A stretch of 64,000 nt of DNA from an uncultured Oscillospiraceae bacterium. Its GTDB lineage: Bacteria; Bacillota; Clostridia; Oscillospirales; Ruminococcaceae. A program made the position numbers and the translations under genes. The notes beneath the pieces are model-generated. The model had not been told where the DNA came from. It worked only from the letters and a program-made list of their open reading frames with translations, and ran no database searches. The first letter of the stretch is position 1; each line of letters begins with the position of its first letter. Location: assembly GCA_963519235.1 (NCBI GenBank), contig CAUQLV010000002.1, positions 64,660 through 128,659 of the forward strand, given 5' to 3'. This document shows, piece after piece, positions 63,774-64,000 of this stretch.

Positions 63774-64000
63774 TTATTCGCAGCCGCAGAAAACCGGCAT
63801 GCCGGGGAATTTTTTGCGCAGCTCGCGGAGTTTCTCCGCGGGAACCGATTCGCCGTCCCGCCGTCCGCAGCGCGGGCAGACTTCGTCGATAATGCCTGTG
63901 TAGCCGCAGACTGGGTCGCGGTCAACGGGATGGTTTACGGAGCCGTAGCCAATGCCGGCGTCTTTCATGCAGCGGACTACCGCTTCGAACGCCTCCAGAT
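63774..64000 (-). CDS. nrdD: Anaerobic ribonucleoside-triphosphate reductase, C-terminal end (5' part outside the window); ends after the Zn-ribbon without a glycyl-radical motif
   Basis: The frame is open to base 64000 (...LEAFEAVVRCMKDAGIGYGSVNHPVDRDPVCGYTGIIDEVCPRCGRRDG...VFCGCE-stop). The CGYTG...CPRCG Zn-ribbon region is typical of NrdD. Confidence 0.8.
   Translation of the reverse strand, partial: LEAFEAVVRCMKDAGIGYGSVNHPVDRDPVCGYTGIIDEVCPRCGRRDGESVPAEKLRELRKKFPGMPVFCGCE

What the first reader, a model, noticed from the sequence alone, without database searches (positions are those of the whole stretch)
63774..64000. nrdD terminates right after its Zn-ribbon, with no glycyl-radical motif
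The minus-strand frame entering from the right edge is clearly NrdD-like (NHPVD...CGYTG...CPRCG). It then continues for only about 30 residues (RRDGESVPAEKLRELRKKFPGMPVFCGCE) to a TAA at 63774-63776. A stem-loop (63753-63773) and then dedA follow. In canonical NrdD, the RxxGY radical loop follows the Zn-ribbon within about 10-15 residues. Here it is absent, and it is found 22 kb away at 41221..41403. The extra C-terminal CGC in the big piece and a Cys near the N-terminus of the small piece could help docking, but that is speculation.
Basis: partly seen in the sequence, partly recalled or inferred. Interest (0 to 1): 0.65.

Follow-up and report, generated by a model that had tools for sequence, protein, structure and literature searches.

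The report
Anaerobic ribonucleotide reductase split in two
The oxygen-sensitive enzyme that makes DNA building blocks in anaerobes is naturally split here: the short loop carrying its catalytic glycyl radical is a separate ~55-residue protein, encoded 22 kb away beside the activating enzyme, and this arrangement is conserved in many anaerobic bacteria but was not found described in the literature searched.

Summary
The minus-strand nrdD at the right edge of the window is 763 aa in full, recovered from the same scaffold. It ends 29 residues after its zinc ribbon and has no RxxGY glycyl-radical motif. The missing part, Pfam NRDD positions 532-562, lies exactly in the 55-60 aa ORF at 41221-41403, directly upstream of nrdG. 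This is not an artefact. Independent assemblies keep the stop codon. Most of the 120 closest homologues of the large piece end in the same tail. At least 150 distinct 50%-identity clusters of stand-alone "mini" proteins exist. In 43 sampled species genomes the order is nrdD-large, mini, nrdG in a single operon. The mini is under strong purifying selection (dN/dS about 0.1), and the large piece keeps every catalytic residue. Both dispersed loci carry tandem NrdR-box-like sites. Profile comparison suggests that the tail is a decayed duplicate of the radical domain. The best reading is an obligate two-chain class III ribonucleotide reductase whose radical glycine sits on a separate peptide activated by NrdG. 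It is functionally related to GrcA/YfiD of pyruvate formate-lyase. I found no description of it; a June 2026 review says spare-part proteins are known only for formate-lyases.

The parts
63774..64000 (-). 3' end of nrdD-large (residues 690-763 of 763, plus the TAA stop at 63774-63776). The gene continues beyond the window; the full gene is L001 7658-9949.
   Evidence: Best solved relative is Prevotella copri NrdD 8p23, E=1.5e-178; the alignment stops before its Gly711 loop.
63867..63917 (-). Zinc-ribbon-like element D717-x2-C720 ... C730-x2-C733 (DPVCGYTGIIDEVCPRC). The first Cys of the canonical CxxC is Asp in both split and unsplit relatives.
   Evidence: Alignment to 8p23; invariant columns of alignment A3; C-termini of homologues.
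63777..63863 (-). Family-specific C-terminal tail (RDGESVPAEKLRELRKKFPGMPVFCGCE). It is absent from unsplit NrdD and lacks the radical glycine. It is probably a decayed duplicate of the glycyl-radical domain.
   Evidence: The tail is conserved in most of the 120 closest homologues. dN/dS is about 0.28. hhalign results: short tail vs long tail E=7.6e-7; long tail vs mini E=1.7e-5 over 38 columns; short tail vs mini is weak, E=0.012.
63753..63773 (-). Seven-base-pair hairpin directly after the stop. Its T-run is weak and the scan does not call it a terminator. The strong terminator of the nrdD-dedA unit is at 63042-63071.
63072..63722 (-). DedA/VTT-family (UptA-like) membrane protein downstream of nrdD-large. 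Context only.
41066..41112 (+). Two NrdR-box-like 16-mers (41066-41081 and 41097-41112), 31 bp apart, upstream of the mini-nrdG operon.
   Evidence: They contain the best single match (13/16) and form the best 31-bp-spaced pair in the whole 64-kb window. An equivalent pair sits upstream of nrdD-large at L001 7566/7597. The consensus used was recalled from memory.
41121..41149 (+). Sigma-70-like promoter match, TTGACT-17-TATGCT.
   Evidence: consensus match only.
41221..41403 (+). Stand-alone glycyl-radical mini-protein: 60 aa from ATG 41221, or more likely 55 aa from GTG 41236. It is the C-terminal Gly-radical loop and tail of NrdD as a separate gene.
   Evidence: Pfam NRDD positions 532-562 of 562. 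All 120 best homologues are 48-88 aa. All 150 best 50%-identity representatives are 51-196 aa. dN/dS is 0.096. The RefSeq homologue is WP_101910609.1 of Marasmitruncus massiliensis.
41290..41307 (+). RRITGY motif. G28 (41302-41304) is the predicted radical glycine and Y29 the conserved partner of Glu618 of the large piece.
   Evidence: The columns are invariant in A1 and 98-100% conserved across 75 split loci. Roles are taken from PcNrdD Gly711/Tyr712/Glu581 (PMC11226230).
41412..41441 (+). Terminator-like hairpin (13 pairs, followed by a T-run) between the mini and nrdG. It could act as an attenuator that gives more mini than NrdG.
   Evidence: It is conserved with a perfect stem in M. massiliensis loci L008 and L010. 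The function is inferred.
41461..41961 (+). nrdG, the radical-SAM activase (CPHHCEGC cluster motif). The ORF is listed from TTG 41446; the likely start is ATG 41461.
   Evidence: TIGR02491 4.6e-41 and PF13353; start inferred.
41961..41996 (+). Strong intrinsic-terminator-like hairpin that ends the mini-nrdG unit.

Best explanation
This is a naturally split, two-chain class III (anaerobic, formate-type) ribonucleotide reductase. The 763-aa large piece carries the ATP-cone, the catalytic barrel with the thiyl-radical cysteine, and the zinc ribbon. It ends in a short tail that has no radical glycine. The ~55-aa mini-protein, encoded next to nrdG, supplies the missing element in trans: the strand-loop with the RRITGY glycine and the C-terminal helix and tail. 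NrdG abstracts the hydrogen from the mini's glycine. The mini sits in the barrel of the large piece as the covalently attached loop does in ordinary NrdD, and it passes the radical to Cys456. In this genome the two loci are 22 kb apart on opposite strands and are probably co-regulated by NrdR. What is shown: the split, its conservation, its operon linkage, purifying selection, and the intact catalytic residues. What is inferred: non-covalent assembly, activation of the mini by NrdG, and enzymatic activity. A further inference is a likely benefit of the split: after oxygen destroys the radical site, only a 55-residue peptide needs replacing rather than a 780-residue enzyme, and a free peptide can reach the activase without the domain flipping out. 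The split probably arose by partial tandem duplication of the 3' end of nrdD, after which the resident copy decayed into the present tail.
For: The two pieces cover the Pfam profile in exact complement, positions 485-531 and 532-562 of 562 (NCBIfam). The full large piece aligns to P. copri NrdD at E=1.5e-178, and the match ends just before the Gly711 loop. Catalytic and contact residues are conserved and invariant across 40 split-type homologues: C456=PcC416, C177=PcC171, N477=PcN435 (formate type), the N121/N123 flap, and E618=PcE581. The mini keeps G28, Y29 and R36, equivalent to Gly711, Tyr712 and Arg719. In relatives the three genes form one operon, nrdD-large (768 aa), a 140-bp gap with a Shine-Dalgarno sequence, mini (53 aa), then an overlapping nrdG. 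Of the 80 GTDB species loci retrieved with the mini, 74 are split. nrdG lies within 1.3 kb downstream in 52 of 69, the large piece ends within 500 nt upstream in 55 of 65, and both hold in 43. Most of the 120 closest homologues of the large piece carry the tail. Eight unsplit relatives at 74-76% identity read straight from the zinc ribbon into FERIRRITGY. All 150 best 50%-identity representatives are 51-196 aa, and 1914 hits reach E<=1e-10. dN/dS is 0.096 for the mini, and 0.023 for the window against M. massiliensis; it is 0.28 for the tail. Independent assemblies show no indels. The best NrdR-box-like tandem pairs lie upstream of both loci. The tail is homologous to the radical domain by hhalign. 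No locus holds a second radical-domain copy.
Against: There is no biochemical or expression evidence. The only run labelled RNA that holds the locus looks like DNA, and four true metatranscriptomes gave nothing. The models of the single chains are poor: pLDDT is 65 for the large piece and 58 for the mini. A second, full-length nrdD elsewhere in this genome cannot be excluded with the data held; only 64 kb plus 20 kb were inspected. Some minis are orphans with neither nrdD nor nrdG nearby, which fits a spare-part role at least in those genomes. The 80 loci were ranked by similarity to the mini, so the proportion of split forms is biased upward.
Confidence: 0.8

Rival explanations
1. Pure spare-part system. 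The mini is a GrcA/YfiD-like rescue protein for an intact full-length NrdD encoded elsewhere in the genome, and the tail-type large gene is an inactive or decaying paralogue.
For: Orphan minis exist with no nrdD or nrdG nearby. Some long tails still keep a Gly-Tyr at the homologous position (KGY in L032, L045 and L064). This suggests an ancestral stage with a resident radical domain plus a spare copy. GrcA sets the precedent (PMC13450708).
Against: The large piece is not decaying: hundreds of columns, including all catalytic residues, are invariant across 40 homologues. In 43 sampled genomes it sits in one operon with the mini and nrdG. No locus holds both an unsplit NrdD and a mini. The window's tail has Lys where the glycine should be.
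Confidence: 0.07
2. The two products are unrelated in function. The truncated NrdD would work without a glycyl radical or have a non-catalytic role, and the mini would act with NrdG in something else.
For: No assay links them. In this genome they are 22 kb apart on opposite strands.
Against: Residues that exist only to contact the radical loop are retained: E618 pairs with the Tyr after the glycine, and the flap is intact. The genes are tightly linked in an operon in most relatives. NrdR-like boxes lie upstream of both loci. The mini is nearly identical to the C-terminus of unsplit relatives.
Confidence: 0.05
3. The pieces are rejoined covalently, either by split-intein trans-splicing or by translational recoding (frameshift or read-through).
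For: Split and intein- or intron-interrupted RNR genes are common in phages (PMC3653736). In a few loci the two ORFs abut or overlap.
Against: In the window the pieces lie on opposite strands 22 kb apart, so recoding is impossible. In other loci the gap runs from -14 to 284 nt in all three frame relations. The tail (about 28 aa) and the mini's N-extension (about 12 aa) match no intein family. They have no conserved Cys/Ser/Thr nucleophile at either junction. The mini has its own Shine-Dalgarno sequence and start codon.
Confidence: 0.02
4. Artefact or recent pseudogene: a sequencing frameshift, a misassembly, or a broken gene.
For: None beyond the unusual gene end.
Against: The same stop and tail are found in independent metagenomes with only substitutions, in the cultured isolate M. 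massiliensis, and in most of the 120 closest homologues. Selection is purifying on both the tail and the mini.
Confidence: 0.01

Closest known systems
Canonical class III ribonucleotide reductase NrdD-NrdG (e.g. Prevotella copri NrdD, PDB 8p23; phage T4 NrdD, PDB 1h78)
   Same: Same family and probably the same chemistry. It has the ATP-cone, the barrel, the thiyl Cys loop (MGCRTRV), the second Cys, Asn at the formate-type position, the NxN flap, the zinc ribbon, the RxxGY radical motif and an NrdG activase.
   Different: The radical glycine loop and C-terminal helix are on a separate ~55-aa polypeptide. The large chain instead ends in a ~28-aa tail. In this genome the two genes lie in different loci.
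GrcA/YfiD, the autonomous glycyl radical cofactor of pyruvate formate-lyase
   Same: A small stand-alone protein homologous to the C-terminal radical domain of a glycyl radical enzyme. It is activated by that enzyme's activase and works in trans in the large enzyme's barrel (PMC13450708, PMC12288474).
   Different: GrcA is a spare part for an enzyme that has its own radical domain. Here the large piece has none, so the mini would be obligatory. The mini belongs to the NRDD family (PF13597), not to Gly_radical (PF01228). It is less than half the size of GrcA (127 aa, from memory) and contains no part of the zinc ribbon. The 2026 review states that spare-part proteins are known only for formate-lyases.
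Split class II ribonucleotide reductase NrdJa/NrdJb (Pseudomonas aeruginosa and some phages)
   Same: An RNR catalytic subunit naturally encoded as two polypeptides, with the C-terminal functional module on the second chain. NrdJa also carries an extra C-terminal element thought to mediate the interaction (PMC9669993).
   Different: It is a different RNR class with different chemistry (adenosylcobalamin). NrdJb carries a zinc-finger/IscU-like re-reduction module, not the radical site.
Intron-, intein- or homing-endonuclease-interrupted RNR genes of phages (T4 nrdD intron; the Aeh1 nrdA genes-in-pieces case, from memory)
   Same: RNR genes found in pieces (PMC3653736).
   Different: Those breaks are caused by mobile elements and are mostly repaired by splicing. 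Here there is no mobile element and no splicing signature, the break always falls at the same structural position, and it is ancient and widespread in cellular genomes.

Membership tests
Class III RNR catalytic subunit NrdD | NRDD-family barrel detected by curated profiles | tested here: met
   PF13597 hits both pieces. The called full-length gene product carries PF03477 and PF13597. The PDB relative 8p23 matches at E=1.5e-178. The fragment alone falls below the whole-protein NCBIfam cut-offs, as expected for 74 aa.
Class III RNR catalytic subunit NrdD | Thiyl-radical cysteine on the finger loop and a second cysteine on the first barrel strand; Asn at the third position (formate-dependent type) | tested here: met
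   C456, C177 and N477 align with PcNrdD C416, C171 and N435. They are invariant in alignment A3.
Class III RNR catalytic subunit NrdD | Glycyl-radical motif RxxGY on the same polypeptide, after the zinc ribbon | tested here: not met
   The large piece stops 29 residues after CPRCG with no Gly-Tyr. The motif RRITGY lies on the separate ORF at 41221-41403.
Class III RNR catalytic subunit NrdD | Four-cysteine C-terminal zinc site | tested here: inconclusive
   Only three Cys are present (C720, C730, C733). Asp717 replaces the first Cys in both split and unsplit relatives. Metal binding was not tested.
Class III RNR system | Dedicated radical-SAM activase NrdG encoded with the radical-bearing protein | tested here: met
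   TIGR02491 matches at 140 bits against a cut-off of 126. nrdG lies directly downstream of the mini here and in 52 of 69 sampled loci.
Class III RNR system | Formate-dependent anaerobic NTP reduction with a glycyl radical seen by EPR | not testable with these tools
   This needs anaerobic reconstitution.
GrcA/YfiD-type autonomous glycyl radical cofactor | Small stand-alone protein homologous to the radical domain of a glycyl radical enzyme | tested here: met
   The mini is 48-88 aa and matches the last 31 positions of the NRDD profile.
GrcA/YfiD-type autonomous glycyl radical cofactor | Sequence membership in the PFL-type Gly_radical family (PF01228) | tested here: not met
   PF01228 does not hit the mini at E<=1.
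GrcA/YfiD-type autonomous glycyl radical cofactor | The partner enzyme has its own intact radical domain, so the small protein is only a spare | tested here: not met
   The partner lacks the glycine loop. No locus holds two radical-domain copies. A distant full-length nrdD in the same genome cannot be excluded.
GrcA/YfiD-type autonomous glycyl radical cofactor | Restores activity after oxygen cleavage | not testable with these tools
   This needs an experiment.
Split intein (protein trans-splicing) | Intein blocks with a Cys/Ser at the N-junction and Asn plus Cys/Ser/Thr at the C-junction | tested here: not met
   No intein family matches. The junction residues are not conserved nucleophiles. 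The extensions are too short.

The most novel reading that the evidence does not exclude
The radical cofactor of this enzyme is a detachable, exchangeable peptide cartridge. The mini would be activated by NrdG while free of the large subunit and then dock into the barrel. The vestigial radical-domain tail of the large subunit would act as a placeholder or docking element that the mini displaces or pairs with. After oxygen damage, the spent peptide would be swapped for a fresh one. The architecture evolved at least twice (short mini plus tail; long mini with a new N-terminal domain) and is the normal form of class III RNR in a large share of gut and digester Bacillota.
Probability: 0.3. Interest if true: 0.88.

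Novelty: new variant of a known kind. Interest (0 to 1): 0.78.

Why it matters
Glycyl radical enzymes are understood as single chains whose C-terminal radical domain must swing out of the barrel to meet the activase and then swing back. The only known exception is the GrcA spare part of pyruvate formate-lyase. A conserved class III ribonucleotide reductase whose radical glycine lives on a separate 55-residue peptide would be a natural experiment on three open questions: how the radical domain is recognised, how it is activated, and how it is inserted. It would also extend the spare-part idea to an essential enzyme of DNA synthesis, and from an optional to an obligatory role. It suggests how strict anaerobes could cheaply repair oxygen damage to their only or main dNTP source. 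There is a practical consequence as well. Public annotation names the minis "anaerobic ribonucleoside-triphosphate reductase" or "hypothetical protein". Large RNR surveys discarded sequences under 400 aa (PMC9531940), so the split has been invisible. A cultured carrier, Marasmitruncus massiliensis, is available for experiments.

Tried and rejected
(1) Frameshift or misassembly is rejected: independent contigs keep the frame and the stop, and homologues share the terminus.

(2) I tried to model the complex with AlphaFold by concatenating the large piece and the mini with a block alignment.

(3) The fallback models are uninformative. The large piece with a shallow alignment gave pLDDT 65, with a low-confidence helix at 743-752 in the tail. 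The mini alone gave pLDDT 58 as one long helix, so it is not an autonomous fold. No fold search was run on them.

(4) The Pfam NRDD profile does not extend into the long tails, so tail homology had to be tested by profile-profile comparison and by permutation. The direct link from short tail to mini is weak (E=0.012).

(5) For expression evidence, the run labelled RNA-Seq that holds the locus gives 14-kb contigs and is probably DNA. Four true metatranscriptomes laid no contig.

(6) Rfam gave no hit in the window, so there is no known riboswitch or leader.

(7) Cysteine docking is rejected on conservation.

(8) Literature: six full-text searches and seven papers read. They turned up only the split class II NrdJa/b, phage intron/intein splits, and GrcA.

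(9) The first translation was in the wrong frame and was ignored.

Full report
OBSERVATION

On the minus strand, the reading frame that enters the window at 63998 reads ...LEAFEAVVRCMKDAGIGYGSVNHPVDRDPVCGYTGIIDEVCPRCGRRDGESVPAEKLRELRKKFPGMPVFCGCE. It stops at TAA 63774-63776. A 7-bp hairpin at 63753-63773 follows, and then a DedA/VTT-family gene at 63072-63722.

The Pfam profile for anaerobic ribonucleotide reductase (PF13597, 562 positions) matches this fragment at positions 485-531. It matches the 60-aa ORF at 41221-41403 at positions 532-562, so the two pieces are exactly complementary. NCBIfam NrdD models give the same picture, and the ORF after the small one is NrdG (TIGR02491, 4.6e-41).

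The last 2 kb of the window are 100% identical to a 159-kb ENA scaffold (locus L001). That locus supplies the whole gene: 763 aa with an ATP-cone. The best solved relative is Prevotella copri NrdD (8p23, E=1.5e-178). The alignment ends at chain residue 705, just before the loop that carries the radical Gly711. No other NrdD-like sequence lies in the window.

NOT AN ARTEFACT

Contigs from independent compost metagenomes cross the stop codon with no insertions or deletions between 63700 and 64000. They differ only by substitutions, and most of those listed in the nrdD frame fall on third codon positions.

The closest named genome is the cultured Marasmitruncus massiliensis (GCA_900186535.1). It has the same arrangement: DUF6320, mini, nrdG, with no large piece within 10 kb. 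RefSeq annotates both pieces there, WP_101910639.1 (763 aa) and WP_101910609.1 (60 aa).

Most of the 120 closest homologues of the large piece end in the same kind of tail: GRR[ED]GE.V..EKL.ELRKK[FY]P.MP.F followed by a variable end. Eight relatives at 74-76% identity are unsplit (for example Caproiciproducens galactitolivorans, 777 aa). They read ...CPKCHRRENDGGPKFERIRRITGYLVGT.DRWNNAKRAEE.DRVKHGL with no tail.

A LARGE CONSERVED FAMILY

A search with the small ORF returned 7375 hits, and the 120 best are all 48-88 aa. In a library of 50%-identity representatives, 1914 proteins reach E<=1e-10. All 150 best are 51-196 aa, nearly all under 125 aa.

In an abundant relative (mini P0065, seen in 384 blocks of the collection), the three genes form one operon. 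nrdD-large (768 aa, with tail) is followed by a 140-bp spacer with its own Shine-Dalgarno sequence, then the mini (53 aa), then an overlapping nrdG.

A scan of one genome per GTDB species with the mini alignment found 595 confirmed stretches. I classified the 80 best loci with my own scripts:
- 74 are split and 6 are unsplit.
- nrdG lies within 1.3 kb downstream of the mini in 52 of 69 loci that have enough flank.
- The large piece ends within 500 nt upstream in 55 of 65.
- Both hold in 43.
- Three have only nrdG, as in the window.
- Six minis are orphans.

The record titles span Oscillospiraceae, Acutalibacteraceae, uncultured Bacilli, Negativicutes, Lachnospiraceae, Treponemataceae, Fibrobacter and Desulfovibrio. 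Because the 80 loci were ranked by similarity to the mini, the split fraction is biased upward. The absolute number of split genomes is not affected by that bias.

The gap between the stop of the large piece and the mini's start runs from -14 to 284 nt, in all three frame relations. No locus contains two radical-domain copies.

SELECTION AND CATALYTIC RESIDUES

Over the 37-codon core of the mini in 75 split loci, median dN/dS is 0.096. For the window against M. massiliensis, dN is 0.012 and dS is 0.50. The 22-codon tail has median dN/dS of 0.28.

I mapped the large piece onto the P. copri structure paper (PMC11226230) through the alignment. It keeps the following residues, all invariant in 40 split-type homologues:
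- the radical-initiator cysteine (C456 = C416);
- the second cysteine (C177 = C171);
- the Asn that marks formate-dependent enzymes (N477 = N435);
- the NxN flap (N121, N123);
- Glu618 (= Glu581), whose partner is the Tyr that follows the radical glycine.

That Tyr, the glycine itself, and the Arg eight residues further on (= Arg719, which holds the flap) are all on the mini and are conserved. The large piece thus retains residues whose role in P. copri NrdD includes contacting a loop that it no longer encodes.

REGULATION

The NrdR-box consensus ACACWATATATWGTGT was recalled from memory of Rodionov and Gelfand 2005 and was not checked here. Scanning with it, the best single match in the 64-kb window (13/16) and the best pair at the canonical 31-bp spacing lie at 41066 and 41097. 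That is just upstream of a promoter-like site at 41121-41149 and of the mini. In L001 the best such pair lies at 7566 and 7597, just upstream of the start of nrdD-large. The same pair is present in M. massiliensis. The two dispersed loci are therefore probably co-regulated (inference).

A terminator-like hairpin at 41412-41441 separates the mini from nrdG and is conserved in M. massiliensis. It could set a high mini:NrdG ratio, which would fit a stoichiometric subunit paired with a catalytic activase (inference).

ORIGIN

Both the end of the large piece's linker (GRREGEGV...) and the start of the conserved part of the mini (..VGEGVKFERIRR) carry GEGV. Unsplit relatives have a single copy of this linker.

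Several lineages have longer tails of 35-45 aa. Their profile aligns with the mini profile over 38 columns: GEGVSVEVLRKLGVY...EEKDR against GEGIKFERIRRITGYL...EEHDRVKH (hhalign E=1.7e-5, probability 78%). Short tails like the window's are homologous to the long tails over their first 14 residues (E=7.6e-7). The direct comparison of short tail with mini is weak (E=0.012). A fixed-register permutation test gives z=1.5-3.6 for all 11 long tails. Pfam does not see this homology.

The most economical reading has three steps. First, the radical-domain-coding 3' end underwent a partial tandem duplication. Second, there was a stage with a resident domain plus a spare copy; some long tails still keep Gly-Tyr at the homologous position. 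Third, the resident copy decayed. In the window's tail, Lys stands where the glycine was.

In a neighbour-joining tree of the barrel, unsplit forms are scattered among split ones. This implies either re-fusions or several splits.

Negativicutes, some Lachnospiraceae and some Ruminococcus have a different architecture. The tail is unrelated and the mini is 95-130 aa, with an unassigned N-terminal domain. In the tree, the Negativicutes large pieces (Anaerovibrio, Megamonas) sit beside unsplit Selenomonas and Massilibacillus enzymes. This is probably a second, independent split (inference).

MECHANISM

The best explanation, at about 0.8, is an obligate two-chain class III RNR. The mini provides the strand, glycine loop and helix that normally follow the zinc ribbon. 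NrdG generates the radical on the mini's Gly28, and the loop sits in the barrel of the large piece next to Cys456. The chain break lies in the linker between the zinc ribbon and the loop.

A detachable radical loop would bring two benefits, both inferred. After oxygen cleaves the chain at the glycyl radical (established for glycyl radical enzymes; PMC12288474), only 55 residues must be remade. And a free peptide can enter the activase without the large domain movement described for NrdD (PMC12662201).

The role of the selected tail is unknown. Docking of the mini, or acting as a placeholder in the empty loop channel, are the candidates.

Four rival readings are much less likely, for the reasons given in their entries: a pure spare part for a hidden full-length NrdD, unrelated functions, covalent rejoining, and artefact.

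COMPARISON WITH WHAT IS KNOWN

The system belongs to the NrdD-NrdG family, except that the defining same-chain RxxGY motif is not met. It works like GrcA/YfiD of pyruvate formate-lyase but is not a member of that family: the Pfam family is different and the partner lacks its own radical domain. It parallels the split class II enzyme NrdJa/NrdJb (PMC9669993).

Six full-text searches found no description of a split class III enzyme or of an NrdD-type autonomous radical peptide. A June 2026 review states that formate-lyases are the only glycyl radical enzymes with known spare-part proteins (PMC13450708). The largest RNR phylogeny discarded sequences under 400 aa and aligned only the barrel (PMC9531940), which explains how the split could be missed. 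Subscription-only literature was not searchable, so prior description cannot be excluded.

The terminal CGC is present in only part of the family. Of 113 distinct tails, 42 have at least two Cys in their last 12 residues and 53 have no cysteine at all. The Cys near the start of the small ORF is not conserved, and it lies upstream of the likely true start, GTG 41236, which follows GGAGGA. The idea is not supported.

LIMITS

There is no expression or biochemical evidence. No model of the complex could be made, and the single-chain models are poor. Only 84 kb of this genome were inspected for a second nrdD. The tree is a quick neighbour-joining tree with midpoint rooting.

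Noticed in passing
L020 5842-6147, L041, L044 5794-6123, L061 5881-6177, L069, L071, L088 5830-6138: A second type of stand-alone radical peptide, 95-130 aa, with an unassigned ~55-aa N-terminal domain (..VTGG.LS..EI..YV.....K...DG..V.L.Y..) in front of FERIRRITGY. It occurs in Negativicutes, Marvinbryantia and Ruminococcus. The matching large pieces (L020, L041) end in a different, unrelated tail. This is probably an independent split. No Pfam family matches the N-domain.
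   Followed up: partly
L014 5929-6144, L025 5935-6141, L054, L065 5986-6135: Orphan minis with neither nrdD nor nrdG within about 3-6 kb (Desulfovibrio, Anaerobiospirillum, Butyricicoccus MAGs). They could be true spare parts or dispersed operons like the window's.
   Followed up: partly
L091 (Eggerthella phage EL753P1, OP172808.1) 70-3087: The phage nrdD carries an intein-like insertion exactly at the thiyl-loop motif (MGC | ... | RTRV) and ends in a tail instead of a radical loop. A 102-aa ORF follows, then a mini-like ORF whose frame breaks between FERIRRI and TGYLTG. The break is either a sequencing error or a decayed gene.
   Followed up: partly
window 41412-41441: A terminator-like hairpin with a T-run lies inside the operon, between the mini and nrdG, directly before the nrdG Shine-Dalgarno sequence. 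It is conserved with a perfect stem in M. massiliensis and may set the mini:NrdG ratio.
   Followed up: partly
window 40382-41053: A DUF6320 membrane protein with an N-terminal CxxC...CxxC zinc-ribbon-like start sits directly upstream of the mini. It is syntenic there in all four related loci, L007-L010. Its relation to the RNR genes is unknown.
   Followed up: no
L032, L045, L064 (ends of the large pieces): Some long tails keep Lys-Gly-Tyr at the position homologous to the radical Thr-Gly-Tyr, and an EE.D[KR] motif further on. They may be intermediates in which the resident radical domain is not yet fully decayed.
   Followed up: partly
window 63774-63790 and homologous tails: Many tails, though not all, end in a cysteine pair (CGCE, DCTH, DCCR, HCDC, CGCGR). 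This recalls the C-terminal redox cysteine pairs of class I and II RNRs. 42 of 113 distinct tails have at least two Cys in their last 12 residues; 53 have no cysteine.
   Followed up: partly
run X8 laid on window 41000-42000 and 63000-64000: A public run labelled 'METAGENOMIC RNA-Seq' yields 14-kb and 3.5-kb contigs across intergenic regions, so it behaves like DNA. The organism is found in compost, manure and biogas-fermenter samples.
   Followed up: no
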